This document shows positions 13,190-36,169 of a stretch of DNA of 64,000 bases, piece after piece. A program made the translations under genes and the position numbers. Positions within the stretch are counted from its first letter, which is position 1, and every line of letters begins with the position of its first letter. The notes beneath the pieces are model-generated. The model saw only the letters and a program-made list of their open reading frames with translations, was not told the origin of the DNA and searched no databases. The stretch is taken from contig CBDETK010000013.1 in NCBI GenBank assembly GCA_965242865.1, positions 128,001 through 192,000 of the forward strand, in the 5' to 3' direction. This DNA is from Candidatus Latescibacterota bacterium. GTDB taxonomy: Bacteria > Latescibacterota > UBA2968 > UBA8231.

Positions 13190-13208
13190 GCGCGGCTTCC
13201 TCTCTGCC

Positions 13209-13859
13209 TCAGCGGCTGGCCCAGAGCATGCCGCGCCGCTGGATTTCGCGCGCTTGGGGCACGTCAAAGTCCCGCGCCACGTGGCCCAGCGACGAGTAGA
13301 ACACGCGGCCCGCTCCCCACACGCGCTTCCACACCACCGGCATGATCGTCCCGTTGACCCAAGGCGCGCTTTGACGACCCTTTAGCGTGGTCGTGGCCAG
13401 CACTTGATTGCCCGGATCGGTGTGCATGTAGTACTGCTCGGAGTGCATCTGAAAGTCGTCTAGGCCGGCGACGATGGGGTCGTTTGGGGCCGCGATGTTC
13501 ACTGTGTAGTCGATGATGCCGTCTGGGTGGGCGACGAACTGGCCGCCGACCATGAACTGGTAGGTGGTATTGTTGCGGAACGAATCGGCCATGCAGCCGT
13601 GCCAGCCGGCCACGCCGGCGCCCTGCTCAACAGCCGCTAGCAACCCGCGTTCCTGCTCTCCTTCGATCTGGCCCATCGTCCACGCCGGCACCACGAGATC
13701 TTGCTCGGCCATTAGGTCGCGGTCTTTGTACGCGTCGAGGGTGTCCGAAATGGTCACTGCAAACCCTTCTTCCGCTAGGATGGGCGCGAAAATATCGACG
13801 CACTGCTTGGGCTCGTGCCCCTCCCAGCCGCCCCAAACCATGATTGCTTTCTTGGCCAT
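13209..13859 (-). CDS. ThuA domain-containing protein
   Basis: 'WGGWEGHEP', 'GWHG', 'GGQFVAHP', 'SEQYY', '[10 protein letters not shown]'. Confidence 0.9.
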
Positions 13860-13873
13860 GATGCTCCTTTGCG

Positions 13874-14629
13874 TTAGCTGGCGCCGCGCGCCAGTTCGTT
13901 GTCAACGAGGTACTGATAGCTCTTTTCCACGGCTTCCATCATGTCGGTCGCACAGCGGTCCAACTCGACGATCAGCCAGTCGCAGGTGCCGTGGCTGGCC
14001 TCGATAATGGGCGGGAAATCCATGGCCCCTTCGCCGACGGCGAGCATGTCCTGCTCCGGGCCGCCCGGGCCGTCCTTGATGTGCAAAAGCGGCGCGCGCT
14101 CGCCCAGCTCCTCGACGACCTGCACGGAGTCGCCGCCGCCGGTATTCACCCAGTAGGTATCGACCTGAAAGAAGATGGACTCGTCGAGCGCTTCGACCAG
14201 TCGCTCAAAGCCCGGACGCCCTTCTACGGGTTGGAACTCCCACCAGTGGTTGTGAAGGCCCAGCTCCAACCCGTTCTCAGCGGCGATCTCGGCGGCTTGA
14301 TTCCAGCGGTCGCACAGGGCCGTGAGCGCGTCCGCGCTTTCAAAGGCAGCGCGCGGCGTGGAGCTCACCACGCGGTTGGCCTCCAGCTCGTGGGCCAGTT
14401 CGATGACTTGGTTTTTTTGCTTGCCCAAGGGCAACTGCGTATGCACGCTGCACACGTCTAACCCTAGATCGGCAAATAGGTCGCTGGCTTCATCTACGGC
14501 GATGCCGGGAAACCCGGCCGTCTCGACGCCCACGTACCCGATCTCGGCGATCCGGGTAACCACGGACTTGAAGTTGTGCGCGAGGGCGTCGCGGACCGTG
14601 TAGAGCTGAAGCGCTATGGGGGCAGCCAT
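13874..14629 (-). CDS. Sugar phosphate isomerase/epimerase (AP_endonuc_2 TIM barrel)
   Basis: 'LQLYTVRD', 'HNHWWEF', 'DTYW', 'HIKD', 'VELD'. Confidence 0.9.
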
Positions 14630-14871
14630 TTCTTCCTTCCTTGATGAGAGATGGTAGGGATATGAAAGTCAAAGCGAGAGCGGCTTGCAAATTGTTGGGC
14701 GTCGTAAGGGACTGATGCGTAACGGTAGTAATTAAATGAAAAAAAATGGGCCGAGGGGCAAATAATTTTTGATACACCAAGCCCGCGGTATGCAGCATCC
14801 GTTCATTCAATCCCTTGCTCGGCCGATCCCGCGCTCCTACATTAGCCGCTCCAACCAAGGAGCAATTGCCA

Positions 14872-15945
14872 ATGAGCAGCCAAGACAAAGCGCGCCTCGG
14901 GTTTATCGGCGCCGGCTGGTGGGCCACCAGCAACCACATGCCCGTTTTTGCCGCCCGCGACGACGTCGAACTAACGGCCGTGTGCCGCTTGGGCCAAGCC
15001 GAACTCGCGCAGGTGCGGGACCACTTCGGCTTCGCGTTTGCCACCGAGGACTATCGAGAGTTATTGACCCACTGCGAACTCGACGGAGTCGTCGTGGCCT
15101 CGCCGCACACCCTACACTACGAACACGCCCGCGCGGCCTTAGAGGCCGGCCTGCACGTGATGTGCGAAAAACCCCTGACCACCCGCGCGGCCCACGCGCG
15201 CGAATTGGTGCGCGTCGCGGCCGAGCGAGACCGCCACTTGCTCGTGCCCTACGGCTGGCACCACAAGCCCTTTATCCAGCGGGCCAAGGAGCTGATGGAC
15301 GACCGAGCTATCGGCGAAATTGAATTCGCGCTCTGCCACATGGCCTCGCCGATCCGCGCCTTGCTTGCGGGAGAGGAGGTCGATGTCTCGGACATTTCCG
15401 GGCAGGACGCGGCCAGCCTCTTTGGTCCCACGCCCTCTACGTGGGCCGATCCGGCCGTGGCCGATGGCGGCTACGCCCACGCGCAAATATCGCACTCCTC
15501 GGGGTTGCTGTTTTGGCTGTCCGGGCTGCGCGCCGAGCGCGTCTTTGCCGCCATGAGCGCGCCCGGGGCCAAGGTCGAGCTGTACGACGCGCTCGCGGTG
15601 CGCTTTACCTCGGGGGCCATCGGCACAGTCAGCGGTGCCGGCACCGTGCCCACGGACCAGACCTTTCAGGTTGATTTGCGCCTCTTCGGCTCGGAGGGCA
15701 TGCTGCTCGTCGATTGCGAGCGCGCCCGCATGCACTTGCGCCGCCACGACGGCCGCCACGTCGTCGAGGAGGTCGCCGCGGACGCGGGGGCCTACGAATG
15801 CGATGGCCCGCCCAACAATTTCGCCGACTTGATCTTGGGCAAAACCGACGTCAACTGGACCCCCGGCGCCGCGGCCATGCGCGGGGTGGAAATGCTCGAC
15901 GCCGCGTACCGTTCGGCCGCTTCGGGCCGGGAAGAGGCGGTGTAA
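14872..15945 (+). CDS. Gfo/Idh/MocA family oxidoreductase
   Basis: 'GFIGAG', 'VASPH..HYEH', 'HVMCEKP'; RBS aaggag upstream of ATG 14872. Confidence 0.9.
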   Translation: MSSQDKARLGFIGAGWWATSNHMPVFAARDDVELTAVCRLGQAELAQVRDHFGFAFATEDYRELLTHCELDGVVVASPHTLHYEHARAALEAGLHVMCEKPLTTRAAHARELVRVAAERDRHLLVPYGWHHKPFIQRAKELMDDRAIGEIEFALCHMASPIRALLAGEEVDVSDISGQDAASLFGPTPSTWADPAVADGGYAHAQISHSSGLLFWLSGLRAERVFAAMSAPGAKVELYDALAVRFTSGAIGTVSGAGTVPTDQTFQVDLRLFGSEGMLLVDCERARMHLRRHDGRHVVEEVAADAGAYECDGPPNNFADLILGKTDVNWTPGAAAMRGVEMLDAAYRSAASGREEAV

Positions 15946-25306: not shown

Positions 25307-25386
25307 TCTTGAATGATGCAGAACTGCTATAAATGAGCGCAGCCAAGCATCTCATGCAGGCCTGCCAAACAACGGAGAACTGTCGC

Positions 25387-26730
25387 ATGAAGTTGAGAAC
25401 AATCGCCCTGCTCACGCTCGCGGCTTGTGGCACCGAACCGGAGCCGAGCTATGTCGCCCGCATTGGTGAAACCACCCTATCGCCGGAAGACTTTAGGGAG
25501 CGCGCCCAAAAGCTGCTGCAAACCGGCTACGAGCACCTCGAGGAGATCAATGCGGACGCCAAGCTGGAACTGCTCAACGGCGTGATCGCCCGCGCGTTGT
25601 TGGTGCGCGAAGGGCTGCGGCGCGGCCTCGACCGCGAGCCGAGCATTGCCCGCGCAGTTGAGCGCGCCGAGCAAAAGGCCGTGGTGGCCAAACTGTACGA
25701 GGAAGAGGCCCTGCGCGGCGAGTACACGTCAACCGAAGAGGAGCTGCGGGCTTTTGCCCAAGAACGCGAATACGATGTCGAGGTCTTGAGCCAGCACATT
25801 GTCTGCGCCACCGCGGAAGAGGCCGAGGAGGTGCTGGCGGCCCTGCGAGAGGACACTCCGTTTGAGGCACTGGTGCCCATTTATTCGACCGCGACCATCC
25901 AGCGGCGCTTTGGCCCGGCCGGTCGGTTGGGGTGGTTCAAGATGGGCGACATGTTGCCCGAGCTGAAGGAACCCCTGCGGACCATGGCCGCGGGGCAACT
26001 CTATCCCCGGCCCGTGAAGACCCAAATGGGCTTTCACGTCTTCCGGCTCGACGACCGGCGGCCCTTGGATTTTGCGACCCAACGCGCATGGATCGCAGAA
26101 AAAGCGCGGGTGCAAAAGCGGGCCGACGACATGGAGCAATACGTCCAGCACCTGCGCCGCGACTACGAGCTAACGGCCCACCCCGAGGCCATAGCAGCCT
26201 TGACCGCGCCCGCTGGCGAGGAGTGGGTGCTCTTTCGTTGGCGCGGTGGCCAACTGACCTCGGCCGCGTACTGGGCCGCCCTAGCCGCGAGCCACAGCCG
26301 GCTCGACAGCGCCGCTCGCTACAAGGCGGCCGAGAACTTGGCCGGGGTGCAGATTATGATGGCCGAGGCCCGCAAGTTGCAATACGACCGCGACCCCGCG
26401 GTGCGCACGCCGGTGGAGCGCCAGCGCGACGCGCTCATCGTCGATTGGCTCTACCGCACTGAGGGCCAAAAGGTGGCGCGCCAGCAGGCCATCACCGAAG
26501 AGACCATTCGCGCGTACTACGACGCCAACATTGAGTTGTTTACCCGCAGTGACGGCAAAGTGGCCGATCTATCCTTGGTCTATAACAGCATCGGCACCCT
26601 GCTGAGGCAGCAGGCGGCAACGCAGGCCATGGACGCCTTTATCGCACGGCTCCGCGAGCAATCCAGCGCGGATATTGAGATAAATACCGCTGCGCTGGCC
26701 GAAGTTGTTTTAGCACTCGACAGGCCGTAA
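25387..26730 (+). CDS. Parvulin-type peptidyl-prolyl isomerase lipoprotein (PrsA/SurA-like)
   Basis: Lipobox 'LAAC'; 'HIVC', 'GRLGWF', 'PVKTQMGFHVF'. Confidence 0.85.
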   Translation: MKLRTIALLTLAACGTEPEPSYVARIGETTLSPEDFRERAQKLLQTGYEHLEEINADAKLELLNGVIARALLVREGLRRGLDREPSIARAVERAEQKAVVAKLYEEEALRGEYTSTEEELRAFAQEREYDVEVLSQHIVCATAEEAEEVLAALREDTPFEALVPIYSTATIQRRFGPAGRLGWFKMGDMLPELKEPLRTMAAGQLYPRPVKTQMGFHVFRLDDRRPLDFATQRAWIAEKARVQKRADDMEQYVQHLRRDYELTAHPEAIAALTAPAGEEWVLFRWRGGQLTSAAYWAALAASHSRLDSAARYKAAENLAGVQIMMAEARKLQYDRDPAVRTPVERQRDALIVDWLYRTEGQKVARQQAITEETIRAYYDANIELFTRSDGKVADLSLVYNSIGTLLRQQAATQAMDAFIARLREQSSADIEINTAALAEVVLALDRP

Positions 26731-26743
26731 AGCTCGTGCCTTT

Positions 26744-26847
26744 CACTAATCCATCTTGTGCGGATAACTCCGCTCCCACCCCACCGCACCAAACTCTTCA
26801 TCGGACCGCAGCGAGCCGCTTTCGGAGGCGTACACCAAGTTGTAATC
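26744..26847 (-). pseudogene. Divergent copy of the sulfatase 3' tip (copy 1)
   Basis: Aligns ungapped with 33251-33354; about 12 substitutions by my count, includes the stop codon. Confidence 0.9.
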
Positions 26848-26908
26848 AGCGGCGCGACCGATCACAAAGAGTGCGGGCTGCACTACAATGTATGAGAGGA
26901 ATCGCGCA

Positions 26909-27259
26909 ATGACCCACGCCTTGGAATGGCGCTACCACCGCCCTGGCTGACAAAGTTGCAAGCGCGCCCGAGAGTTTCTCGTGCAAAACAACATCGCCGA
27001 CGGCGTCGTGCAGAGCGCGACCAAAGAACCGATCTCCGGCCCGGCTGCCCTCGCCCTGCTGGAAGGCGCGACCGAGCTGTTCGTCGCCCAAGGGCAGCGC
27101 GTCCTCCGTTTTGACCTGACGGCGCAACGGCCGGCGGACGAGGAGTTGCTCCAGCTTCTATTGGGGCGTTCTGGCAAGCTCCGGGCCCCCGCGCTCCGCT
27201 GGGGGACGCGTCTTGTCGTCGGGTACAACCAAGCGCTGCTGCCGCTGGCGTTGGGTTAG
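26909..27259 (+). CDS. ArsC-family (seleno)protein with UxxC motif (TGA 26948-26950 read as Sec)
   Basis: MTHALEWRYHRPG-TGA-QSCKRAREFL...'LLGRSGKLRAPALRWG..LVVGYN'; RBS gagagga; hairpin CGAGA-GTT-TCTCG 3' of the TGA. Confidence 0.8.
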
Positions 27260-27322
27260 ATGGAGAAAGGCATGTCGAGTTCGACCTTGACTTGCCGGAC
27301 CATTGTGGACGCCTTGAATTAG

Positions 27323-28471
27323 ATGGAGAAAGATATGTCAAATTCGACCTTGGAAAATGATGTCTCCCTCAAGGAGGAAGAGAGCGATGTTGAAGAAGAG
27401 AAGGAGGACCCACAAGAAAGAATTACAACTCCATTTAACCCTGAGCAGATCAAAATTCGCACCACCCACATCGTCGTTGAACAGCTTATATCGCGCATTA
27501 AGCACGAGGAAATCAACCTAGCACCGGATTTTCAACGACAGGCCGGTATCTGGAACAAAGAGCGCAAGAGCCGCCTCATCGAATCGCTGTTATTACGCAT
27601 TCCTCTCCCGGTATTCTATGTCGCCGCAGACGAGTCTGAAAAGTGGTCGGTCGTTGACGGCATTCAGCGCATGAAGACCATCTATGACTATGTGACGGGT
27701 AAGTTCCCTCTGAGACGACTTGAATATCTAACCAAACTCAACGAATGTATTCACGAAAAACTGCAGAGGCCGTTGCAGCGACGAATCAGTGAGACCCAAC
27801 TCATCGTCAAAGTCATAGAGTCAGGGACCTCACCGGATGTGCTGTTCAACATATTTCGACGTATCAATACAGGTGGCATGACGTTGAACGGACAAGAGAT
27901 ACGCCATGCACTGAATCCTGGTCCTGTTCGGGGCTATTTGAAGGAACTCGCCGAATCCGACGAGTTCAAAAAAGCCACGGACGGTAGAATCAGCCCATTA
28001 CGGATGGTTGATCGGGAGTTCGTACTGCGATTCCTCGCTTTTCATATCATGCCGTGGGAAGAATACTCCTCCAGCGACCTCAATGGCCACCTTGTAAGCA
28101 CAATGAAGAAAATCAACCGCATGAGTGAGCGTGAACGCAACAACTTCGCTACTGATTTCAGGCGAGCAATGTTAGCGGCATTCGATGTATTCGGTGAGCA
28201 TACATTCCGCAAACCACCTAACACACCTGACGACCGCCGACCTCCAATTAATAAGGGTATTTTTGAGGCGTGGAGCGTTCAGTTTGCACGTTGTTCGCCA
28301 GAGCAAATAAGCGCACTTGTCGAGCAGCGGAATGAAGTCCAATGTCGTTTCAAAAAACTGGTGGCAGAAGATAGTGCCCTTCTAAAATCCATCTCCTATT
28401 CGACTGGATCGCCACAGCACGTACAGAAGCGATTCCAAGCAATTAAGCAACTTGTCAAGGAGTTCGTCTGA
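27323..28471 (+). CDS. DUF262 (ParB/GmrS-like) protein; Menshen NsnA-like
   Basis: 'PDFQR..IW', 'LIESLLLRIPLP', 'VVDGIQR', 'IFRRINTGG..L..QEIRHA'; lower GC. Confidence 0.88.
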   Translation: MEKDMSNSTLENDVSLKEEESDVEEEKEDPQERITTPFNPEQIKIRTTHIVVEQLISRIKHEEINLAPDFQRQAGIWNKERKSRLIESLLLRIPLPVFYVAADESEKWSVVDGIQRMKTIYDYVTGKFPLRRLEYLTKLNECIHEKLQRPLQRRISETQLIVKVIESGTSPDVLFNIFRRINTGGMTLNGQEIRHALNPGPVRGYLKELAESDEFKKATDGRISPLRMVDREFVLRFLAFHIMPWEEYSSSDLNGHLVSTMKKINRMSERERNNFATDFRRAMLAAFDVFGEHTFRKPPNTPDDRRPPINKGIFEAWSVQFARCSPEQISALVEQRNEVQCRFKKLVAEDSALLKSISYSTGSPQHVQKRFQAIKQLVKEFV

Positions 28472-29586
28472 TGCTTAGCAATATCAAGCTGATGCACTTC
28501 AAGTGCTTTGAGCAGTTGGATCTAAATTGCAAACAGCTCAATCTCCTCTGCGGTTTGAATGGGATGGGTAAGAGCAGCGTCATCCAAGCGTTGCTTATGC
28601 TCCGGCAATCGTCCGAAACAGGAGAATTGTCCGCCGGTAGGCTGGCCTTGAACGGCGAGCGAGGCGCTGTGGGTACAGGCGAGGATGTACTGTTTGAAGA
28701 CGCCGAGCGCGATGTGTTGGGATTCATGCTTGAGAGCAACAAAATAACAAGACCATGGAAAATGGAATTCGACTGCAGTAGAGAGGCTGATGTTCTATCG
28801 TCCAGCAAGGCTAAGGACGATAGATATAGCGAATGGCGTGATGTACCACCGTTTGGAGGAAAGCTCGTTTACGTGAATGCAGAACGGGTCGGCCCCCGGA
28901 AGTTGTACCCAGTCTCCACCGACGTGTTGACTAGGCGCGGAGATTTCGGTGAAAGCGACGAGTACGCGTGGGGCTATCTAAACCGCCATCAAAACGACCT
29001 TCTACAAGCCGACGACCCGCGTTGCATTGGCAGAGGAGAGCGTCCGCTATTCACCATTGTTGAGCAGTGGATGCAGGACGTGTGCCCCGGTGTTAATCTA
29101 CGACTGGAAGAGATGAGGGAGGTTGACGCGGTCATTGCCGGATTTAGGTTCGACCGAGAGGACGATGTGGCTTCCCACTGGTATCGGGCGACCAATGTCG
29201 GGTTTGGTCTATCGTACGCGCTGCCGGTCATCCTCGCCCTGCTTGCAAAGCCCGGCACACTATGCCTGATCGAAAACCCAGAAGCTCACCTACATCCTCG
29301 AGGCCAGACCAAGCTAGCCGAATTGGCAGCCCGTGCGTCGAAGGCCGGCGTTCAAGTGATTGCTGAGACCCATAGCGATCACTTCATGGATGGCGTACGA
29401 ATCGCGGTCCGCGACGGGCTTATCGAACCAGACGCCGCCACATTCCATTACTTTGAGCGCAAAGGCAATCAGACCGTCGTCTCTTCGCCACAGATAGACT
29501 CGGATGGGCGGTTGTCGTCGTGGCCGATCGGCTTCTTTGACCAGCACGACGAGAATCTGGCAAGGCTACTTGCACCAAAGGAATGA
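28471..29586 (+). CDS. AAA_15/21 ABC-like ATPase with DUF3696; Menshen NsnB-like
   Basis: Walker A 'GLNGMGKS', 'NVGFGLSY.LP', 'IENPEAHLHP', 'ETHSDH', 'WPIGFFDQ'. Confidence 0.9.
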   Translation: MLSNIKLMHFKCFEQLDLNCKQLNLLCGLNGMGKSSVIQALLMLRQSSETGELSAGRLALNGERGAVGTGEDVLFEDAERDVLGFMLESNKITRPWKMEFDCSREADVLSSSKAKDDRYSEWRDVPPFGGKLVYVNAERVGPRKLYPVSTDVLTRRGDFGESDEYAWGYLNRHQNDLLQADDPRCIGRGERPLFTIVEQWMQDVCPGVNLRLEEMREVDAVIAGFRFDREDDVASHWYRATNVGFGLSYALPVILALLAKPGTLCLIENPEAHLHPRGQTKLAELAARASKAGVQVIAETHSDHFMDGVRIAVRDGLIEPDAATFHYFERKGNQTVVSSPQIDSDGRLSSWPIGFFDQHDENLARLLAPKE

Positions 29587-29587
29587 T

Positions 29588-30538
29588 ATGCGCGAGTTCG
29601 TACTGAATGAAGCTAGTATTACAGCCCCCGATCAGCGTACTGCGATAGATTGGCTCGCAGATATCGCCAAAGGGATGTCGTCACTCATTGTTGAGCAAGT
29701 CGTTCAGAACACGTTACGAACGAGCCCCCCTCCACAGGAGATACATTATCGAGACAATAGCTCGCTCTCGGAGGTAATTCTTGCACTGAGACAATGCGGT
29801 TTAGTGGACGAGCATCGGTTCCTCATGCGTAGTAGCGTTAAGTCCCCTCTGATAAACGAACTTGAACAAAGTGTCAAGGATCGGTTCCTCGCGTGTGGAG
29901 GACGGACGTTTCCATCGCCAGTAGGCGATTCCCTCGTCTTATGTGCCATCTCCGATCGGATCGCTGTCAGCTTTCCCTCTGATTCAGTCTGGAACAGCGA
30001 CCTAATTAAGGTTGACTTTTACGAACTGAAGGACGACGAAAGTGGCGAGGTAAGCGAGGAAGAAACGTTTGAAGAAATTGACAATCTCGCCCGCTCCAAT
30101 CACGCGCCTCCAATATGCGAACGCCATCGCCAGAGTCTTCGCGGCCAAATCAAGAGTTATGCAGAATTGTGGAATAACAGAAAACAGGCATTTCCAGATC
30201 TCCTATTCGGGCCGGACGTAGAGGATCATCTTACGGGACTGAATACCGGCCACTTGGAGACTGTCGTTCGCAAGCTAGCGAGTCTCAATGCTGCTGCCGC
30301 CGAGTGGCGCGATGTTGGCGGCGGCGCACCCCAGTGGAAGACCAAAGTGACTGACGAAAACGAGGCGTTGAAGAACAACGCCAGGGAGCGAGAAAAGCGT
30401 CGGTTCAGATCGTGCGATGGTACGCACCCACTGTTCCTGTGGCACACTCGCTTTGGCAGTGCTGGCCGAATCCATCTCCGTTTCGATTCAAGTTCGCGTG
30501 AAATCGAAATTGGCTACATTGGAAAGAAGCTGCTTTAA
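29588..30538 (+). CDS. Putative effector with C-terminal RelE-like nuclease region; Menshen NsnC-like
   Basis: Starts 1 nt after the ATPase stop; C-terminal 'R.FR......F.WHTRFG..GRIHLRF.....IEIGYIGKKL'. Confidence 0.7.
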   Translation: MREFVLNEASITAPDQRTAIDWLADIAKGMSSLIVEQVVQNTLRTSPPPQEIHYRDNSSLSEVILALRQCGLVDEHRFLMRSSVKSPLINELEQSVKDRFLACGGRTFPSPVGDSLVLCAISDRIAVSFPSDSVWNSDLIKVDFYELKDDESGEVSEEETFEEIDNLARSNHAPPICERHRQSLRGQIKSYAELWNNRKQAFPDLLFGPDVEDHLTGLNTGHLETVVRKLASLNAAAAEWRDVGGGAPQWKTKVTDENEALKNNAREREKRRFRSCDGTHPLFLWHTRFGSAGRIHLRFDSSSREIEIGYIGKKLL

Positions 30539-30670
30539 GATTAGCGTCGAGCCGCTTCAAGAGGTGCCCAGTGCCTTCGCATGGAGCGTTTTTCATAAGG
30601 CGAGCCGCTTTTTCTTTATACAAGAACCAAATCCAGAGTTTTGGTCCCACTTCAAGCACTTACCGCTCCC

Positions 30671-30881
30671 CTAATCGATCTTGTGCGGATAACTCCGCTC
30701 CCACCCCGCCGCCCCGAACGCTTTATCGGACCACAGCGAGCCACTCTCCGAAGCATACACCAAGTTGTAATCGTGTGAGGTCTGTACGGAGCGCATGATC
30801 TCGCGCCAGAGCGCGGCGTCCAAGCGCCGGTATTCGGCTGTGTGCGCCGCAGATTCGGCGAGGTTGTGCTGCTCTTGGGGA
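30671..30881 (-). pseudogene. Copy of the sulfatase 3' end (copy 2)
   Basis: Near-identical to 33253-33463 (4 substitutions by my count). Confidence 0.92.
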
Positions 30882-31033
30882 ATTAGTAGGACTGGTCTTT
30901 GTTCTGGACGCGCTTTTCTTTTTCGAAAAGGCCCTGCATGTCTTTTTTCTCAATATTTTCTCAGTATCTTATATTGTAAGGTCATTTTCCCTGCTTCAGA
31001 CGACGAGCTGGACAGAGAACGCAATCAGCAAGA

Positions 31034-31239
31034 GCCCTGCTAAAGGGCGCGACCGAGCTATTCGTCGCCCAAGGACCGCGCGTCCTCCGCTTCGACCTGA
31101 CGGCGCAACGGCCGGCGGACGAGGAGTTGCTCCTGCTTCTATTGGGGCGTTCTGGCAAGATCCGGGCCCCGCGCTCCGCTGGGGGACGCGCCTAGTGGTC
31201 GGGTTCAACCAAGCACTGCCGCCGCTGGCGTTGGGCTGA
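31034..31239 (+). pseudogene. Divergent copy of the 3' half of the ArsC-family gene
   Basis: Aligns with 27053-27259; many third-position changes, a 1-bp deletion, stop TGA instead of TAG. Confidence 0.92.
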
Positions 31240-31316
31240 GTGCTTTCAGCACAGCGGCCCCTATATTCCGGCGTCTTCATCGCCGTTTGCTTGGCCCCTT
31301 AAAGAGAGGATTTGCA

Positions 31317-33380
31317 ATGCTACATCATTCAACATGTACTACAAAAAACTTAATTATCAAACTAATAAAAAATTATGAGGAATGTTCTATTCACGCTGCA
31401 CTGCTTCAGCATTGGGCGAAGATCAACGAAATTCCCTTTTCTAAGTTCAAGCAGACGAATGCAGCCGCTCGTTTTCTAACAGCGTCTCATCTCAGCGAAG
31501 TGGAAAGCATTCGCCGAATACTAAGTCAGTCCATTTTCAAGCTATCTATAAAAGACATAGAGCGCATTTTTGAGGTTCTAATAGATTCTGGCAGACGCAA
31601 ATCTCAAGGAGCTTTCTACACACCTGATTTTATAATCGAATACTTAGTGCGACATGGATTACAGCTAGGCAATCACCGCAGGAAAGAAGCTCCGTTAATT
31701 TGCGATCCCGCTTGTGGGAGTGGTGGATTTCTCATACGGGCAGCAGAGATATTAAAAGACGATATTTCTCCCGATAGAGCATTTGCGGAATGCCTCGTTG
31801 GATTTGACAACGACCCTTGGGCCATTGAGCACGCTCGTTGTCTCATCGAGATCTTTTTGATTCTTCATGGTTTTGAGCTCTCCGGCATCGATTTGCGTCT
31901 CTTCTGCCGCGATACCCTACTTTGTTCTCACGAAAACTTATGGAACTTATCAGGTGCTTACAATGGATTCAATCTAGTTACGACAAACCCTCCATACGTC
32001 AAGCTGCAAAACCTCGACTTTGAATACCGGACGAGACTAGCAAAAAAATTCAATCGTTATGCTAATGGGAATTTCAGTTTAGCCCTTCTTTTTTTAATCG
32101 CTGGGCATAGACTGCTCAGGCCGCAAGGATGCTTGGCCGTGATTACCCAAAACAATCTATATACTTCTTTCGCAGGTAGTGGCGTTAGATTCTACTTACA
32201 GAATCAGCAGTGCATACGGCGGATCGTTGACTTTGGTCATTACAGAGTTTTTAAGCAAGCTAACGCATATACTTGCTTAGTCTTTCTTGGGACCGAGAAG
32301 AAGGCTTGTTTTGAATTTGTTAGAATAGAGGGAGCTTGCGTCGATAGTCTCAGAAACGCAACGTTCTCAGAAATTCTTTTTTCAGACTTGCGGGCCGACA
32401 AATGGCGTCTAGCAAAAAGCAATCACTTAAGGAATCTTGAAATAATTGAATCGACTGGAAAACCTCTTGGGACCATAGCCTCTATCAAGGTTGGATTTGC
32501 AACGCTAAAAGATTCGGTTTTCTTAGTCCGCATAAGGGACGATCAGTACTGTACTGCAAATCCGATGAATCAAGAAACTCACCTAGTAGAAATCGGTCTC
32601 ACTCGTCCCGCCGTTAAAGTTGCAAACCTAAATAGAGCGGAAGACATAGAAAAAAATGACTTGCGAATCATCTTTCCTTATAAAAGGATAGAAGAGAAAT
32701 ACCGTCTAATGTCAGAGGAGGATATAAAGAATCGATTTCCGCAGGGGTATTCCTATCTGCGGAAATACCGCGATTTCTTAGAGAGCCGAGACAAGGGAAA
32801 GAAACGCTACGAAGGATGGTACGCTTGGGGGCGAACGCAAGGAATGGAAGCGAAGGGGCCTAAGCTGCTGACCAAGACATTTAGTAGATTCCCACAGTTT
32901 ATGCTCGACAGGAGCGATCAACTTTTTTGTAATGGCTATTCGGTAACTATAAAAGACGATTCTCTATTTAGGGATAAACTTACCATCGAAGTCCTTGAGA
33001 AAATCACCAACAGCAGGATTATGTATTACTACGCGAAACTGACTAGTTTCCAAATTGAAGGTAATTATCAGTGCTATCAGAAGAACTTTATCGAGCGAAT
33101 CGGTATTGTCAATATGACGGAAAGAGAAATGACAACGTTTATAGAACTGCCGAAACTCGAAGCAGACGAATACTTGGAAGGTCTCTATGGGATCAAAAGT
33201 AAAGAAATTGAGGAGATCTGTGGTTCAGCTTTATCGAGCACTAGCACCGTCACTAATCGATCTTGTGCGGATAACTCCGCTCCCACCCCGCCGCCCCGAA
33301 CGCTTTATCGGACCACAGCGAGCCACTCTCCGAGGCATATACCAAGTTGTAATCGTGTGAGGTCTGTACGGAGCGCATGA
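31317..33380 (+). CDS. N6-adenine DNA methyltransferase (Eco57I/TaqI-like, gamma class), no adjacent endonuclease
   Basis: 'GAFYTP', 'DPACGSGGFL', 'NPPY'; low GC; the last ~42 codons overlap the sulfatase antisense. Confidence 0.88.
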   Translation: MLHHSTCTTKNLIIKLIKNYEECSIHAALLQHWAKINEIPFSKFKQTNAAARFLTASHLSEVESIRRILSQSIFKLSIKDIERIFEVLIDSGRRKSQGAFYTPDFIIEYLVRHGLQLGNHRRKEAPLICDPACGSGGFLIRAAEILKDDISPDRAFAECLVGFDNDPWAIEHARCLIEIFLILHGFELSGIDLRLFCRDTLLCSHENLWNLSGAYNGFNLVTTNPPYVKLQNLDFEYRTRLAKKFNRYANGNFSLALLFLIAGHRLLRPQGCLAVITQNNLYTSFAGSGVRFYLQNQQCIRRIVDFGHYRVFKQANAYTCLVFLGTEKKACFEFVRIEGACVDSLRNATFSEILFSDLRADKWRLAKSNHLRNLEIIESTGKPLGTIASIKVGFATLKDSVFLVRIRDDQYCTANPMNQETHLVEIGLTRPAVKVANLNRAEDIEKNDLRIIFPYKRIEEKYRLMSEEDIKNRFPQGYSYLRKYRDFLESRDKGKKRYEGWYAWGRTQGMEAKGPKLLTKTFSRFPQFMLDRSDQLFCNGYSVTIKDDSLFRDKLTIEVLEKITNSRIMYYYAKLTSFQIEGNYQCYQKNFIERIGIVNMTEREMTTFIELPKLEADEYLEGLYGIKSKEIEEICGSALSSTSTVTNRSCADNSAPTPPPRTLYRTTASHSPRHIPSCNRVRSVRSA

Positions 33381-34719
33381 TCTCGCGCCAGAGCGCGGCG
33401 TCCAAGCGCCGGTATTCGGCTGCGTGCGCCGCGGATTCGGCGAGGTTGTGCTGCTCTTGGGGATCTTCCTGCACATCGAAAAGCCCGGCCGCGCCATTGC
33501 CGTATTTGACCAGCTTGTACCGTCCGTCGTAGGCCATCCAGCCGGACTGCAAGCCGCCGACTAGCAGGTTGCGCGGCGCATCGCCAGCCAAGCCCAAGCC
33601 GGGCAGGGGCCTAGCATCCATGTACTCGGGAACGCCGTGGCCAGACGAGGCGAGCAGGGTGGCGGTGACGTCCGTGAGGCAAACCAAATCGTCGCACACC
33701 GTGCCAGTGGCCCCGCTCGGCTGGCGAACCAGCATGGGCACGTGACAACTGCCTTCGTAGAAGTTGCCCTTGGCATTTACGCCGTGATCGCCCACTAGGT
33801 CGCCGTGGTCTGAGGAAAAAATGACGAGGGTGTTGTCGAGACGACCGCTTTCCTCCAAGGCCGCGAGGATGCGGCCCACTTGGTGGTCTATCTGCAAGAT
33901 GAGGGCCGAATAGTGGGCGCGCACCTTGCGCTTTTGTTCCTCGGTGTAGGGGCCTTGGGTCTCTGGAGTCCATATCGGCACGCCGGGCCGACGCGGCGGA
34001 TGGATGCCCTCGCGGACATCGCGGTGAATGGGGTCGCCCGGGGCGGGCGCGGGAATTTTATCTACATCGACTTGGGCCAAAAACTCTGGCGTGGGGTCGT
34101 ATGGGTCGTGCGGGCCGGGAAAGCCGACCATGCAGGCGAAGGGCCGTTCGTCGTCGTACTCGCGGATGAAGCGAGCCGCCTCCTCGCCGACGAAGTAATC
34201 CCAATAGCAGTCCCAAGGCAGAAGCGACACGCAAGCACCGCGCTGTTCGTCGTAGCCTACGTGCTCCTTGCCCATGTACTTGCGGTGGCCGCGCTGTTGC
34301 AAGTAGTGCCAGTAGTCGTCTTGGATGTTGACCCACACCTTGTCTTCGCAGGCGATGCGGTGTTGGAAGCCAAAAGAGGCGTCCCAAGGGTAGAAGTGCA
34401 TCTTGCCGATGGCCGAGGTGAGGTAGCCGGCGTCGGTCAACATCTCCGCCCAAGTGCGGATGCCGCATGCGGCACGGTCCGGGCGCAGGTAATTGCCGTT
34501 GGTCAGCACGTGGGTGCGCCAAGCGTTGAGGCCGGTAAGCAGGGAACAACGCGCCGGCACACAGACCGGGTGCAAGCTATACGCGCGATCGTAGCGGATG
34601 CCCTCGGCGGCAATGCGGTCGATGTGGGGCGTGGAAATGTGGGGGGCACCGTAACAACTGAGAAAGTCGTGGCGCAGCTGATCGGGCATGATGAACAATA
34701 GGTTGGGTCGGTCGGGCAT
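33253..34719 (-). CDS. Sulfatase (Cys-type formylglycine-dependent)
   Basis: 'LFIMPDQLR', 'CVPARCSLLTG', 'GKMH', 'PHDPY', 'SSDHGD'. Confidence 0.93.
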   Translation of the reverse strand: MPDRPNLLFIMPDQLRHDFLSCYGAPHISTPHIDRIAAEGIRYDRAYSLHPVCVPARCSLLTGLNAWRTHVLTNGNYLRPDRAACGIRTWAEMLTDAGYLTSAIGKMHFYPWDASFGFQHRIACEDKVWVNIQDDYWHYLQQRGHRKYMGKEHVGYDEQRGACVSLLPWDCYWDYFVGEEAARFIREYDDERPFACMVGFPGPHDPYDPTPEFLAQVDVDKIPAPAPGDPIHRDVREGIHPPRRPGVPIWTPETQGPYTEEQKRKVRAHYSALILQIDHQVGRILAALEESGRLDNTLVIFSSDHGDLVGDHGVNAKGNFYEGSCHVPMLVRQPSGATGTVCDDLVCLTDVTATLLASSGHGVPEYMDARPLPGLGLAGDAPRNLLVGGLQSGWMAYDGRYKLVKYGNGAAGLFDVQEDPQEQHNLAESAAHAAEYRRLDAALWREIMRSVQTSHDYNLVYASESGSLWSDKAFGAAGWERSYPHKID

Positions 34720-34768
34720 GGTCTCATTCCGTTGGTTGGGGTGTTTTCGCGGCCTTGGTGCGCTCATA

Positions 34769-36169
34769 CTAATCTCCTCGGCCAAGACCAGCAAGTACCA
34801 GCCGTTTGAACAGGTCGCCGCGCTCGGCGTAACTGGCAAACTGATCGAAGCTGGCGCAGGCCGGCGAAAGCAGCACCACGTCGCCGGTTCGCGCCCAGCG
34901 CCGAGCGAGGGCGAGGGCTTGAGATAGGTCGCGGCAAAAATGGGCGATCTCGCCCGCGCCCGCCCGCTGTATGGCCGCGGCAATGCGGGGGGCCTCTTGG
35001 CCGATCAGCAGCGCGGCGCGCACCCGGCCCGCGGCAATCGCAGTGCCCAAGGCACTGAAGTCGGCCCCTTTTGTCGCGCCGCCCGCAATCAGCAGCAGGG
35101 GCGCGTCAAAGGCGCGCAGGGCCGCACAGGCCGCATCAACCGTCGTGGCCAGTGAGTCGTTGTAATAGGTGACGCCGGCGCACTCGGCCACGTATTCGAG
35201 GCGGTGGGGCAGGCTCGTAAAGGCGCGTAGGGCCTCGGCAAAGCGGGTCGGCGACGCCCCAAAAGCCAAAGCACCGGCGACAGCCGCGGCGGCATTGGTC
35301 CAATTGTGTTGGCCCCGCAGGGGCAAGTCGGCCACCGGACAGAGGGCGGAGGGCTGCGCCCCGGGGCGAGCGGCCCACAACTGGTCGTTGGCAATCCACG
35401 CGCCCGGCGCGCTCGGGGCGGTGGGGCTAAAGCCCCACAGGGCGGCCGAACTCTCGGCGGCAAAGGCCCGGGCCGTGGGGCAATCCCGCTGGACGATGAG
35501 GATGTCGCCGGGCGTTTGGTAGCGGCACACGGGCTTTTTAGCGGCCACGTATTCGGCGAGATCGGCGTGGTAGTCGAGGTGGTCCTCGGCGATGGAGAGC
35601 ACCACGGCGATGTAGGGGCTTTGGTCGAGGTCTTGCAGTTGAAAGCTGGACAGCTCTAGGACCACGCGGTCGGTCGGCTGCACCTCGTCGAGGAAGTCGA
35701 GCGGCGGCCGGCCGATGTTGCCGCCGCTAAACACCCGGATTGCGGGGTCGGTCGCCAAGAGCGCGTGCAGCAGCGCGGTCGTGGTGCCTTTGCCCTTGGT
35801 GCCGGTGACGCCGAGGACGGGCGCGGGGCACAGCTGTAAAAAGAGCCGAGTCTGGCTCGACACTTCGACGCCGCACCCGCGCGCCGCCTGTAGGCGCGGG
35901 TGTAGCGCTGGCAGGCCCGGGGTGCGGAACAGCAGGTCGAAGTCGGTCAGGTCGTCGAGATAGTGCTCGCCAACGCGCCATTGTTGTACGCCCTCCACCG
36001 GCGTGGCCGGGGCGCGTACATCGCACACAGAAAAGGAAATCTGATGCGCGTGGAGAAAGCGGGCTAGGGCGCGGTTTTCCACGCCGAGGCCGAGGAGGGC
36101 AATGCGCCGCTGGTGCAGGGGTTGGACCGCGCTTGACGCTCGGGGGCTTGGAGATTTTTTTAGCATCAT
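34769..36169 (-). CDS. murD: UDP-N-acetylmuramoyl-L-alanine--D-glutamate ligase
   Basis: 'GVTGTKGKGTT', 'GNIG', 'ELSSFQL', 'DHLDYH', 'LLSPACASFDQF...ERG'. Confidence 0.92.
   Translation of the reverse strand: MMLKKSPSPRASSAVQPLHQRRIALLGLGVENRALARFLHAHQISFSVCDVRAPATPVEGVQQWRVGEHYLDDLTDFDLLFRTPGLPALHPRLQAARGCGVEVSSQTRLFLQLCPAPVLGVTGTKGKGTTTALLHALLATDPAIRVFSGGNIGRPPLDFLDEVQPTDRVVLELSSFQLQDLDQSPYIAVVLSIAEDHLDYHADLAEYVAAKKPVCRYQTPGDILIVQRDCPTARAFAAESSAALWGFSPTAPSAPGAWIANDQLWAARPGAQPSALCPVADLPLRGQHNWTNAAAAVAGALAFGASPTRFAEALRAFTSLPHRLEYVAECAGVTYYNDSLATTVDAACAALRAFDAPLLLIAGGATKGADFSALGTAIAAGRVRAALLIGQEAPRIAAAIQRAGAGEIAHFCRDLSQALALARRWARTGDVVLLSPACASFDQFASYAERGDLFKRLVLAGLGRGD

What the first reader, a model, noticed from the sequence alone, without database searches (positions are those of the whole stretch)
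26744..33354. Integrase-free stacking of defence cassettes between duplicated 3' tips of two convergent genes
Seen: ppiC-> | sulfatase tip (26744-26847) | arsC-> | DUF262-ATPase-effector-> | sulfatase 3' end (30671-30881) | ~150-bp low-GC filler | arsC 3' half (31034-31239) | methylase-> | <-intact sulfatase. This reads as two alternative versions of one locus, [arsC-Menshen-sulf'] and ['arsC-MTase-sulf], placed head to tail, plus an older ppiC/sulf' junction. No integrase, transposase, tRNA or attC-like site is present. Inference: a convergent-gene junction acts as a cassette slot, and alternative fillings from relatives are added in tandem through one homologous anchor plus one illegitimate junction, building a defence array without a dedicated recombinase.
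Basis: partly seen in the sequence, partly recalled or inferred. Interest (0 to 1): 0.85.

Follow-up and report, generated by a model that had tools for sequence, protein, structure and literature searches.

The report
Two defence-slot alleles joined in tandem
In a sponge-associated bacterium, two alternative fillings of one gene-end "slot" (a Menshen anti-phage system and the leftover methylase of a restriction system) sit one behind the other, joined by scars that point to ordinary homology-guided recombination and not to a dedicated mobile-element enzyme.

Summary
The repeats are real: three copies of the sulfatase 3' tip and two of the arsC 3' half, at the stated coordinates.

The main reading holds. 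Same-genus genomes carry this arsC/sulfatase junction empty (9), with Menshen (2) or with the methylase plus its restriction enzyme (2). A ~98%-identical strain in another run has the methylase-only allele. Run X6 spans every junction at flank-like depth, so this is not a two-strain co-assembly.

Three corrections:
- The "filler" is a copy of the upstream region and first 22 nt of the PAPS-reductase gene that normally precedes arsC.
- The ppiC-side tip is not an old slot. It is fused to a 57-nt tail of that reductase gene, at a strain-specific rearrangement breakpoint.
- The methylase is an orphan; its restriction partner is lost.

Junctions have 0-2 nt microhomology and sit at different depths in the sulfatase gene, and no integrase or tRNA is present.

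Best explanation: homology-anchored insertion of an allelic fragment. This matches the published "insertion with long target duplication" and HFIR proposals. At least four more loci in this genome show the same duplication. Verdict: a new variant of a known kind.

The parts
25333..26730 (+). ppiC-type peptidyl-prolyl isomerase gene. Homology to orthologs stops at 26706, 24 nt before its stop codon. It is not the ancestral neighbour of arsC.
   Evidence: Pfam Rotamase_2 7.2e-12. Orthologs in G012, G007 and G009 continue into a block found at G000 C13:12667 onward. The X8 contig leaves the window at 26706 into that same block.
26707..26742 (.). 36 nt of unassigned sequence at the rearrangement junction between the truncated ppiC end and A1.
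   Evidence: It aligns only weakly to the spacer beside A3.
26743..26847 (-). A1: detached copy of the sulfatase 3' tip (stop codon plus about 95 nt of coding sequence), a dead fragment.
   Evidence: 88.6% to A3 and 88.2% to A2. It ends at '...GTTGTAATC', with 1-nt microhomology to the next piece.
26847..26903 (+). 57-nt copy of the 3' tail (last 49 nt plus 8 nt) of the PAPS-reductase gene Y. It is the native leader of arsC, and an inverted duplicate of G000 C13:605127-605183.
   Evidence: 98.2% over 57 nt, inverted. Relatives' Y-arsC DNA matches both places.
26909..27259 (+). Intact ArsC-family selenoprotein gene with TGA at codon 14 in a UxxC motif. This is the left anchor gene of the slot. 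Its allele is about 5-6.5% diverged from strain X8.
   Evidence: NF041106 1.6e-32. The TGA is conserved in 12 of 12 relatives and a tRNA-SeC gene is present. X8 shows 20 differences in 313 nt.
27248..27352 (+). 63-nt tandem duplication of the arsC-stop/NsnA-start junction. The first copy holds a decayed NsnA start and the second holds a decayed arsC end. It is read as a further small allele-insertion scar.
   Evidence: Repeat D8, 83% over 42 nt. In G001 and G023 the NsnA ATG abuts the arsC stop with no duplication.
27323..30538 (+). Complete Menshen system: NsnA 27323-28471, NsnB 28471-29586, NsnC ORF 29504-30538.
   Evidence: PADLOC NsnA 3.7e-139, NsnB 1.1e-102, NsnC 2.1e-58. Pfam GmrSD_N and AAA_15/AAA_21/DUF3696. 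85-88% DNA identity to the same cassette at the same site in G001 and G023.
30671..30881 (-). A2: detached 211-nt copy of the sulfatase 3' end. It is the original right flank of the Menshen allele, cut at an illegitimate junction.
   Evidence: 98.1% to A3. Collinear with G001's NsnC-sulfatase junction. Homology to A3 ends at '...CTTGGGGA'.
30882..31029 (+). The former 'filler': a copy of the Y upstream intergenic region (about 125 nt) plus the first 22 nt of Y, with ATG mutated to CTG. It carries a promoter-like site at 30947-30975.
   Evidence: BLAST 82% over 134 nt to rc C13:605869-606000. A global alignment extends to 30882 with 8- and 16-nt indels. It is the sister of the native copy, and other species are unalignable. 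The promoter is a consensus match only.
31034..31239 (+). B2: 3' 40% of arsC, frameshifted by a 1-nt deletion, joined to Y(+22) through about 4 unassigned nt. This is a deletion scar. Its allele matches strain X8.
   Evidence: X8 agrees with B2 at 6 of the 7 X8-versus-B1 differences listed in the B1 span, and it carries the extra base at 31167.
31317..33380 (+). Orphan type II N6-adenine methylase. Homology to relatives' M gene ends about 33221. The ORF has lost its own stop and reads about 50 codons through the antisense sulfatase tip. The cognate REase is absent.
   Evidence: PADLOC MTase_II 2e-108, profile positions 36-602 of 607. G043 has M plus REase_II at 1.7e-67. X8 also lacks the REase.
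33253..34983 (-). Intact sulfatase gene, the right anchor of the slot. A3 is its 3' tip, 33253-33463. Orthologs align from about residue 75-85 of this ORF.
   Evidence: Pfam Sulfatase 1.1e-44. Orthologs at 85-92% aa identity in 18 of the same-genus genomes searched (a 19th, G016, is at 70%).

Best explanation
The arsC/sulfatase convergent gene junction is a variable cargo slot in this genus of Candidatus Latescibacterota. In this strain, two alleles that occur singly elsewhere are joined head to tail.

Unit 1 is arsC, Menshen NsnABC and a dead 211-nt sulfatase tip. Unit 2 is a trimmed copy of the whole locus: the PAPS-reductase upstream region plus its first 22 nt, the arsC 3' part, an orphan methylase and the intact sulfatase.

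Most likely mechanism. A DNA fragment of the homologous locus from a close relative, linear or circularised, paired with the resident locus through flank homology using the host's RecA pathway. Its other end was joined illegitimately. The incoming allele was therefore added beside the resident one instead of replacing it, and a flank segment was duplicated. This is homology-facilitated illegitimate recombination (HFIR) or a Campbell-type single crossover. Its outcome is the published 'insertion with long target duplication'.

Later changes. One deletion removed Y and the arsC 5' half from unit 2. The REase was already lost in the methylase allele.

The leftmost tip. A1 fused to a 57-nt Y tail is another scar of the same type. 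It now sits at a breakpoint of a recent strain-specific rearrangement spanning about 450 kb, which brought ppiC next to it.

Shown:
- The anatomy of the array.
- The allelic series in relatives.
- The conspecific methylase-only haplotype.
- Junction microhomology of 0-2 nt.
- Absence of recombinase genes.
- The same duplication at other loci.

Inferred:
- RecA dependence.
- The route of DNA entry.
- Linear versus circular intermediate.
- Which unit was the incomer.
- The order of events.
For: 1. Allelic series at one site. In one search, 9 of 16 fetched loci are empty, 2 carry Menshen and 1 carries other cargo. G043 and G008 carry methylase plus REase.

2. Cargo sits inside the arsC-to-sulfatase spacer. 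That spacer measures 52-202 nt in the 8 of 9 empty loci that could be measured, and 52-53 nt in 5 of them. NsnA abuts the arsC stop in G001 and G023.

3. Unit 2 is collinear with the methylase allele. G008 aligns over 2235 nt across B2 plus the methylase. The X8 contig 31111-34864 has 74 differences.

4. Unit 1 is collinear with the Menshen allele of G001 through A2.

5. The 'filler' is homologous to the Y upstream region plus Y 1-22. The inserted DNA therefore came from the same locus.

6. The junctions are sulf@211::Yup, sulf@95::Y tail and Y+22::arsC+~144. They have 0-2 nt microhomology and different end points.

7. Mixed ancestry. X8's arsC matches B2 and not B1 at 6 of 7 listed sites. The full arsC differs from X8 by 20 of 313 nt. 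By comparison, ppiC differs by 21 of 1207 and the methylase-sulfatase stretch by 74 of 3754.

8. No integrase or transposase domain in the interval. No tRNA.

9. Generality. I fetched 8 further low-GC cassettes bracketed by 78-238-nt direct repeats. The 20 cargo ORFs tested include McrBC, type III R-M, Eco57I-like plus SNF2/PLD, and SIR2-STAND proteins, and none has a recombinase domain. In 4 of the 8, relatives have an empty site where both flanks overlap on the single-copy repeat.

10. The 9 repeat segments compared (A3, B1 and 7 of the 8 extra loci; L057 left out) share no common core. The longest shared word is 11 nt; shuffles give 9-13.

11. One molecule. X6 unitigs bridge every junction at depths 115-168, against flanks at 148-151. 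The window lies in a 5.6-Mb contig.

12. ComEC and DprA homologs are present. This is weak evidence, because the non-competent control genomes have them too.

13. Published counterparts. Furuta et al. 2010 (PMC2853133; passages and Discussion read). Kirchberger et al. 2017 (PMC5361080; passages read).
Against: - A2 and A3 differ by only 1.9% (4 of 211). B1 and B2 differ by 8.4%, and the Y-upstream copy differs from the native one by about 10% at aligned positions (BLAST gives 82% with gaps). One insertion from one donor predicts similar divergence. Gene conversion between A2 and A3, a mosaic donor, or decay of the dead copies has to be invoked.
- The Y-upstream copy differs from both the native copy and strain X8 at the 3 X8 differences listed in that span. 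It is therefore not simply 'resident' DNA. Attempts to polarise these changes with other species failed.
- Published HFIR junctions use short microhomologies and usually delete recipient DNA (recalled, not checked). Here microhomology is 0-2 nt and DNA is duplicated.
- Ku was not found, in a genome 93.6% complete. End-joining circularisation therefore has no obvious enzyme.
- A1 needs a separate, unresolved event. Its cargo partner is gone.
- 4 of the 8 extra loci did not confirm. L057's repeat is a dispersed ~90-nt element. L052 and L054 have rearranged flanks in relatives. L056 is unclear.
- The reads examined were Logan contigs, not raw long reads. X6 may be the source data set of the assembly, and so may not be independent.
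Confidence: 0.6

Rival explanations
1. Cis tandem duplication followed by cassette swap. The locus from the Y upstream region to sulfatase +211 first duplicated within one chromosome. Ordinary double-crossover homologous recombination with a Menshen-bearing relative then replaced the cargo and arsC of the left copy. Deletions followed.
For: A2 and A3 are 98.1% identical, as expected for a recent in-genome duplication. The diverged pieces are exactly arsC plus Menshen. Allelic substitution by flanking homology is the commoner process in the published cases (PMC5361080 passage; PMC2853133 Table 1).
Against: It needs more steps: duplication, swap and deletion. The Y-upstream copy in unit 2 should then be near-identical to the native copy, but it differs at about 10% of aligned positions plus indels. 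No relative or strain examined shows a duplicated locus with one kind of cargo.
Confidence: 0.15
2. One complex replication-based rearrangement (template switching, MMBIR-like). It stitched short copies of nearby sequence (105, 57 and 150 nt) at the breakpoints of the inversion and duplication.
For: Several short patches of local sequence are joined with 0-2 nt microhomology. They lie directly beside a breakpoint of a rearrangement spanning about 450 kb, with a 57-nt inverted duplication. Inversions next to R-M insertions are on record (PMC2853133 introduction).
Against: The patches are 8-18% diverged from their in-genome templates. The rearrangement is absent from a ~98%-identical strain, so it is young. 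The 57-nt duplicate is 98% identical. The model does not explain why arsC plus Menshen is a diverged allele while B2, the methylase and the sulfatase are strain-typical.
Confidence: 0.1
3. Tandem accretion of decayed integrative elements (CIME-like). The cassettes were integrated by a site-specific recombinase that targets the sulfatase 3' end. The tips are attL/attR, and the integrase has been lost or acts in trans.
For: Direct repeats of a gene's 3' end bracket low-GC cargo in tandem. This is the usual picture of elements that integrate into gene ends (general knowledge, recalled).
Against: No integrase, transposase or tRNA is present. The tips end at different depths in the gene, 95 and 211 nt. 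The inserted DNA contains pieces of the opposite chromosomal flank, arsC and the Y upstream region. The 9 repeat segments compared, from this locus and 7 other loci of this genome, share no core. Filled alleles in G001, G023 and G043 show no duplicated tip (and the tblastn/blastn rows), and the ORFs I scanned there (DarT1 and NADAR in G023, M and REase in G043) are not integrases.
Confidence: 0.07
4. Assembly artefact: two strains with different single alleles were co-assembled into a false tandem.
For: The organism is known only from metagenome-type data. Strain mixtures do exist: run X8 holds a methylase-only strain at depth 217-356 plus Menshen at depth 2-10.
Against: The A2::Yup junction itself places a sulfatase tip upstream of the methylase unit on one molecule. 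It is bridged in X6 by a unitig at depth 168. Menshen at 132.7 and the methylase at 115 are each close to the flank depth of 148-151, instead of summing to it. The contig is 5.6 Mb. The junction sequences are not simple strain variants.
Confidence: 0.03

Closest known systems
Insertion with long target duplication of restriction-modification genes (Nobusato et al. 2000, cited as ref. 37 and not seen; Furuta, Abe & Kobayashi 2010, PMC2853133, passages and Discussion read)
   Same: Small low-GC defence gene sets without any mobility gene are flanked by direct repeats far longer than transposon target duplications (45-423 bp in their tables; 78-238 nt here). The repeat is single-copy in an empty-site relative. 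Allelic substitution at the same locus and neighbouring inversions also occur. The mechanism is stated as unknown.
   Different: Their screen required R and M genes. Here the cargo includes Menshen, and other loci carry McrBC, SIR2-STAND and unknown genes. Here the insert also carries recognisable pieces of the opposite flank of the same locus (arsC 3' part, Y upstream region). This shows that the inserted DNA was an allelic copy of the locus, and that two alleles were stacked. Their supplementary figures could not be opened, so similar cases may be shown there.
HFIR-type sequential displacement that builds orphan immunity-gene arrays in Vibrio cholerae T6SS clusters and orphan 3' regions in Rhs/CDI loci (Kirchberger et al. 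2017, PMC5361080, passages read)
   Same: A new module enters by one homologous anchor plus an illegitimate join. Old material is kept and pushed along, so arrays with stubs of earlier gene ends build up without an integrase.
   Different: There the anchor is the conserved 5' part of the effector or toxin gene, and the arrays are immunity genes. Here the anchors are housekeeping genes that converge on an intergenic slot, and the cargo is anti-phage systems. In both cases the mechanism is a proposal and has not been demonstrated.
Core defence hotspots flanked by conserved core genes (P. aeruginosa cDHS, Johnson et al. 2023, PMC10250203, passages read; E. coli hotspot #37, Hochhauser et al. 2023, PMC10121019, one passage read)
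   Same: A fixed pair of core genes brackets highly variable defence cargo. Often there is no identifiable mobile element. Exchange through flanking homology is suggested.
   Different: Those hotspots are large (median 26 kb for cDHS1), and the passages I read describe no junction scars. Here the slot is a spacer of about 52 nt between convergent stop codons, and the scars record how an allele was added.
Integron cassette arrays
   Same: Promoter-proximal stacking of small, tightly trimmed cassettes at one site.
   Different: There is no IntI gene. No inverted-repeat attC-like structure lies at the cassette borders. The repeats are pieces of the flanking chromosomal genes.

Membership tests
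Menshen anti-phage system (NsnA-NsnB-NsnC) | Three-gene operon: NsnA with a ParB/DUF262 domain, NsnB ATPase, NsnC effector (abstract of PMC12065111) | tested here: met
   PADLOC NsnA 3.7e-139 (profile 10-382 of 385), NsnB 1.1e-102 (1-343 of 345), NsnC 2.1e-58 (4-303 of 305), in that order on one strand. Pfam GmrSD_N and AAA_15/AAA_21/DUF3696.
Menshen anti-phage system (NsnA-NsnB-NsnC) | Protects against phage | not testable with these tools
Type II restriction-modification system | Methyltransferase with an N6-adenine MTase domain | tested here: met
   Pfam N6_Mtase 5e-21 and Eco57I 1.1e-19. PADLOC MTase_II 2e-108.
Type II restriction-modification system | Cognate restriction endonuclease gene beside the methylase | tested here: not met
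   G043 has a convergent REase_II (1.7e-67). G008 has its remnant across a contig break. In the window, homology stops at about 33221 and the sulfatase stop follows 30 nt later. The X8 strain also lacks it. The methylase is therefore an orphan.
Insertion with long target duplication (Furuta et al. 2010 criteria) | Direct repeats longer than 30 bp flank the insert and align to a single-copy sequence in an empty-site genome | tested here: met
   A2/A3 is 211 nt at 98.1%, and A1 is 105 nt. The tip is single-copy in all 16 fetched relatives, and the site is empty in 9.
Insertion with long target duplication (Furuta et al. 2010 criteria) | Insert under 20 kb with no other mobile-element genes | tested here: met
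   The units are 3.9 kb and 2.6 kb. No integrase or transposase domain and no tRNA.
Insertion with long target duplication (Furuta et al. 2010 criteria) | Insert contains both R and M gene homologs (their screening criterion) | tested here: not met
   One unit is Menshen; the other is a methylase without an REase. This was a search filter in that paper, not a mechanistic feature.
Homology-facilitated illegitimate recombination (HFIR) | One end of the incoming DNA is homologous to the recipient; the other joins at a non-homologous site | tested here: inconclusive
   The structure fits: collinear allelic DNA on one side, and sulf@211::Yup with 0-2 nt microhomology on the other. A Campbell-type circle or a cis duplication gives the same end product.
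Homology-facilitated illegitimate recombination (HFIR) | Depends on RecA and on uptake of foreign DNA (natural transformation in the published cases; recalled from the references listed) | not testable with these tools
   ComEC (1.2e-61) and DprA (1.1e-75) homologs exist. The same families also hit non-competent control genomes.
Site-specific integrative element or integron | Integrase gene within or beside the array | tested here: not met
   All ORFs between 26743 and 33253 are assigned to other families.
Site-specific integrative element or integron | The same crossover core at every junction | tested here: not met
   The tips end at +95 and +211 of the sulfatase gene. The 9 repeat segments compared share no core. 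No inverted repeats lie at the cassette borders.
ArsC-family (seleno)protein NF041106 | Family HMM above its cut-off, in-frame TGA at the redox motif, and Sec machinery in the genome | tested here: met
   112.3 bits against a cut-off of 85. TGA in U-x-x-C is conserved in 12 of 12 relatives, and tRNA-SeC lies at C13:3729554-3729652. SelA, SelB, SelD and a SECIS element were not searched.

The most novel reading that the evidence does not exclude
In this lineage, defence cassettes of any type travel as 'allele fragments' that need no recombinase of their own. A cassette plus a stub of its flank is inserted next to the resident allele by host homologous recombination. The long flank duplication this creates then lets the cassette loop out as a circle and re-enter another genome at the same core gene. 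The convergent-gene slot with its scars would be the first natural intermediate showing how 'insertion with long target duplication' works. That mechanism has been open since 2000. It would also show that the process extends beyond R-M systems to Menshen, McrBC and others, building defence arrays by stacking.
Probability: 0.2. Interest if true: 0.7.

Novelty: new variant of a known kind. Interest (0 to 1): 0.5.

Why it matters
How defence systems move into 'hotspots' that carry no mobile-element genes is an open question. The papers I read say so for P. aeruginosa core hotspots and for R-M insertions with long target duplication.

This locus is a well-preserved natural record. Both parental alleles exist singly, in relatives and in a conspecific strain. 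The product keeps four junction scars. The inserted DNA carries pieces of the opposite flank, which identifies it as a copy of the same locus from a relative.

That narrows the mechanism to homology-guided addition of an allele. It also gives concrete constructs for a bench test.

The locus further shows stacking, not replacement. A genome can therefore accumulate defence systems at one slot. The same flank-duplication signature marks at least four other cassettes in this genome, including types that are not R-M systems.

Tried and rejected
- A whole-genome self-BLAST timed out. The first k-mer repeat list was swamped by tandem paralog families. I replaced it with a filtered scan.
- One search printed 34 rows. 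I inspected 12 and fetched 8. The other rows were not examined.
- Among the 8 extra loci, L057 was rejected as a target duplication because its repeat is a dispersed ~90-nt element with many copies in relatives. L052 and L054 have flanks that are not adjacent in the five relatives. L056 is unclear.
- The 'goes back' joints in runs X9 and X1 (31093->27113 and 31064->27113) looked like a third haplotype. A 40-nt stretch identical in B1 and B2 allows that path in a k-mer graph, so I did not use them.
- The sponge-metagenome runs X1-X4 (shares 0.23-0.40) were not used for habitat or haplotype claims beyond what was laid.
- Polarising the differences between the Y-upstream copy and the native copy with other species failed. 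The intergenic region is unalignable outside this species.
- Ku was not found. I drew no conclusion beyond noting it.
- Promoter and terminator scans gave numbers close to the shuffles: 8 against 5.0 and 11 against 8.3. The site in the Y-upstream copy is only a consensus match.
- No structure, complex or atlas job was run, because no claim needed one.

Full report
**Observation**

The repeats exist as described.
- The repeat finder and BLAST give three copies of the sulfatase 3' tip: A1 26743-26847, A2 30671-30881 and A3 33253-33463, the last attached to the intact gene.
- They give two copies of the arsC 3' part: B1 27053-27255 and B2 31034-31235.
- Identities are A2/A3 98.1% over 211 nt, A1/A3 88.6% over 105 nt, and B1/B2 91.6% over 203 nt with a 1-nt indel that frameshifts B2.
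- E-values run from 1e-33 to 1e-102.
- The own genome holds no further copies.

**Genes**

In order along the window:
- a ppiC-type rotamase;
- an ArsC-family selenoprotein, with an in-frame TGA in a UxxC motif (NF041106 above its cut-off);
- a complete Menshen operon, NsnA, NsnB and NsnC;
- a type II N6-adenine methylase;
- a convergent sulfatase, followed by a Mur-ligase-like gene.

GC drops from about 0.65 in the core to 0.46-0.58 in Menshen and 0.39-0.47 in the methylase. No tRNA lies in the 64-kb window. No Rfam family hits 20-40 kb. No ORF in the interval has an integrase or transposase domain.

**Genome and relatives**

The window is part of a 5.6-Mb contig of a 6.0-Mb genome. Public records of same-genus relatives are titled Candidatus Latescibacterota MAGs.

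One search listed 19 orthologous sulfatase loci (85-92% aa identity, with G016 at 70%). I fetched 16 of them with 15 kb on the arsC side. The three left out were G021 and G020, which lie at contig ends, and G008, which I fetched later.

tblastn gave these states:
- arsC directly beside the sulfatase in 9 loci;
- arsC-NsnABC-sulfatase in 2 (G001; G023 has a DarT1/NADAR pair stacked behind Menshen);
- arsC, a 1239-aa secreted protein, a 208-aa ORF, then the sulfatase in G013;
- no arsC nearby in 4 (G007, G005, G002, and G016 at a contig end).

In 8 of the 9 empty loci the stop-to-stop spacer could be measured. It is 52-53 nt in 5 of them and 65-202 nt in the other 3.

The methylase was found in 3 of 31 genus genomes, including this one. 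G043 (complete genome) and G008 (split over two contigs) carry Y-arsC-methylase-REase-sulfatase. The REase scores 1.7e-67. No relative has duplicated tips (and for G043 and G008).

The predicted single-cassette haplotypes therefore exist. The convergent junction is a variable slot in this genus.

In 11 of the 16 fetched relatives, the DNA upstream of arsC is syntenic with G000 C13:605127-619016 in reverse orientation; G043 and G008 show the same. The gene next to arsC there is a 251-aa PAPS-reductase-like gene, which I call Y (Pfam 3.7e-33).

In this genome Y lies 450 kb away and inverted. BLAST of that region against the window gave two hits.
- Window 26847-26903, the stretch between A1 and arsC, is a 98% inverted duplicate of the last 49 nt of Y plus 8 nt.
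- Window 30907-31029, the 'filler', matches the Y upstream intergenic region and the first 22 nt of Y.

A global alignment carries the second match back to 30882, directly after A2. Only this species' own Y upstream region aligns to it; other species are too diverged.

Unit 2 is therefore a trimmed copy of the whole locus: Y upstream plus Y 1-22, then a deletion, then arsC from about +144, the methylase and the sulfatase.

ppiC is not an ancestral neighbour.
- In G012, G007 and G009, the 3 of 5 searched genomes that have a ppiC ortholog, ppiC abuts a block that lies at C13:12667 in this genome.
- Homology breaks 24 nt before the ppiC stop.

**Junction anatomy**

- sulf+211 '...CTTGGGGA' is joined to 'ATTAG...' of the Y upstream region.
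- sulf+95 '...GTTGTAATC' is joined to 'AGCGGCG...' of the Y tail.
- Y+22 is joined through about 4 nt to arsC at about +144.
- Microhomology is 0-2 nt at each junction.
- A fourth scar is a 63-nt tandem duplication of the arsC-stop/NsnA-start junction. It is absent from G001 and G023, where the NsnA ATG abuts the arsC stop.

**Reads (Logan contigs only)**

Run X6 holds 0.98 of the sampled words and may be the source data set.
- It tiles 25500-35000 at 100% identity.
- Its unitigs bridge ppiC::A1::Y tail, A2::Yup, Yup::'arsC, NsnC to A2, and methylase to A3.
- Depths are 132.7 for Menshen and 115 for the methylase, against 148 and 151 for the flanks. The shared tip piece is at 339.
- Two strains with one allele each would give flank depth equal to the sum of the two cassette depths.

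Run X8 carries the same organism label but comes from another sample. Its dominant strain is about 98% identical.
- One contig leaves ppiC at 26706 into the ancestral neighbour.
- One runs Y upstream, then 685 nt, then the Y tail and arsC.
- One covers 31111-34864 with 74 differences, and carries the extra base at 31167 that restores the arsC frame.
- Menshen is present there only at depth 2-10.

X8 is thus a conspecific methylase-only, REase-less allele with ancestral synteny. X8's arsC agrees with B2 at 6 of the 7 X8-versus-B1 differences listed in the B1 span. The full arsC differs from X8 by 20 of 313 nt, against about 2% in the flanks. Unit 2 is therefore strain-typical, and arsC plus Menshen is a diverged allele.

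**Mechanism**

A site-specific recombinase is unlikely, for four reasons.
- No such gene is present.
- The tips end at different depths in the sulfatase gene.
- The insert carries pieces of the opposite chromosomal flank.
- The repeats here and at other loci share no core. The longest shared word is 11 nt; shuffles give 9-13.

The structure is what results when a fragment of the homologous locus from a relative pairs through one flank and is joined illegitimately at its other end. A circularised fragment integrating by a single crossover gives the same result. In both cases the incoming allele is added beside the resident one, and a flank segment is duplicated.

Weak points:
- A2 and A3 (1.9% apart) are much closer than B1 and B2 (8.4%) or the two Y upstream copies (about 10% at aligned positions).
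- The Y upstream copy differs from both the native copy and X8 at the 3 X8 differences listed in that span. Conversion, a mosaic donor or decay must be invoked.
- The history of A1 is unresolved.
- ComEC and DprA homologs are present and Ku was not found. None of this is decisive.

**Generality**

A filtered k-mer scan of the genome looked for 70-450-nt direct repeats, 0.8-25 kb apart, bracketing DNA at least 7% lower in GC. It printed 34 rows. I inspected 12 and fetched 8.

The 20 cargo ORFs tested include:
- McrBC plus a methylase;
- a type III R-M system;
- an Eco57I-like protein plus a SNF2/PLD helicase;
- an AAA_15-DUF3696 ATPase plus an RNA ligase;
- a SIR2-STAND protein;
- an M-S fusion;
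- several ORFs with no family.

None has a recombinase domain.

I compared each locus with five relatives.
- Four (L051, L053, L055, L058) show an empty site whose two flanks overlap on the single-copy repeat.
- One (L057) has a dispersed repeat instead.
- Three are inconclusive.

**Comparison with the literature**

- Furuta, Abe & Kobayashi 2010 (PMC2853133; passages and Discussion read) define 'insertion with long target duplication' of R-M genes. The repeats are 45-423 bp, no mobile genes are present, the empty site exists in a related genome, and the mechanism is unknown. They also report allelic substitution and nearby inversions. Their supplementary figures could not be opened.
- Kirchberger et al. 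2017 (PMC5361080; passages read) propose HFIR for the stacking of orphan immunity genes and cite the same idea for Rhs orphan 3' regions.
- Johnson et al. 2023 (PMC10250203; passages read) and Hochhauser et al. 2023 (PMC10121019; one passage read) describe core-gene-flanked defence hotspots without identifiable mobility.
- My searches for direct-repeat-flanked defence hotspots and for Menshen (listings only) showed nothing that describes this allele stacking. That is not proof of absence.

**Verdict**

The phenomenon is a new variant of a known kind. Its value is that both parental alleles and all the scars are preserved.

Noticed in passing
window 26909-27259 (TGA at 26948-26950); G000 C13:3729554-3729652: The 'arsC' is an ArsC-family selenoprotein (NF041106). 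Its in-frame TGA sits in a U-x-x-C motif and is conserved in 12 of 12 same-genus relatives. The genome has a tRNA-SeC gene. The gene always follows a PAPS-reductase gene, which suggests it is that enzyme's redox partner. SECIS, selA, selB and selD were not examined.
   Followed up: partly
G000 C13:1813560-1818260 (L051), 4770083-4774275 (L053), 5412907-5422835 (L055), 4410721-4414981 (L058): Four more low-GC cassettes are flanked by 78-214-nt direct repeats that are single-copy at empty sites in relatives. Their cargo is McrBC plus a methylase, three unknown ORFs, an Eco57I-like protein plus a SNF2/PLD helicase, and an M-S fusion plus two unknown ORFs. Of the 34 rows, 22 were not inspected.
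   Followed up: partly
L028 (G023) 13174-14967: In relative G023 the same slot holds Menshen followed by a DarT1-like ADP-ribosyltransferase and its NADAR antitoxin. That is two systems stacked, with no duplicated gene tips.
   Followed up: partly
G000 C13:154847-154903 versus 605127-605183; C13:12580-12667: There are strain-specific large rearrangements. The segment between arsC and a 1056-aa repeat protein, about 450 kb long, is inverted relative to relatives and to strain X8, with a 57-nt inverted duplication at its ends. The ppiC/neighbour adjacency is also broken. All these breakpoints lie at ends of convergent genes. The full breakpoint graph was not resolved.
   Followed up: partly
G000 contigs C9 (22,004 nt) and C12 (21,965 nt): Each of these small contigs is about two head-to-tail copies of a unit of about 10.4-10.5 kb. 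That looks like a small circular plasmid or phage genome assembled as a concatemer.
   Followed up: no
L057 3045-3134 (G000 C13:5477045-5477134); L043 5155-5252: A dispersed repeat of about 90-100 nt has many copies in this genome and in relatives, at 76-94% identity. It may be a MITE- or REP-like element.
   Followed up: no
L056 (G000 C13:4504001-4512000): A methylase-containing cassette lies downstream of a 272-aa gene here, but upstream of that gene's ortholog in G010 and G023. The site is empty in G001, G009 and G043. This is unexplained.
   Followed up: no
window 33221-33380: The methylase ORF has lost its own stop codon. It reads about 50 codons through the antisense strand of the sulfatase 3' end, so the two convergent ORFs overlap by 128 nt. 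The X8 strain has the same arrangement.
   Followed up: partly
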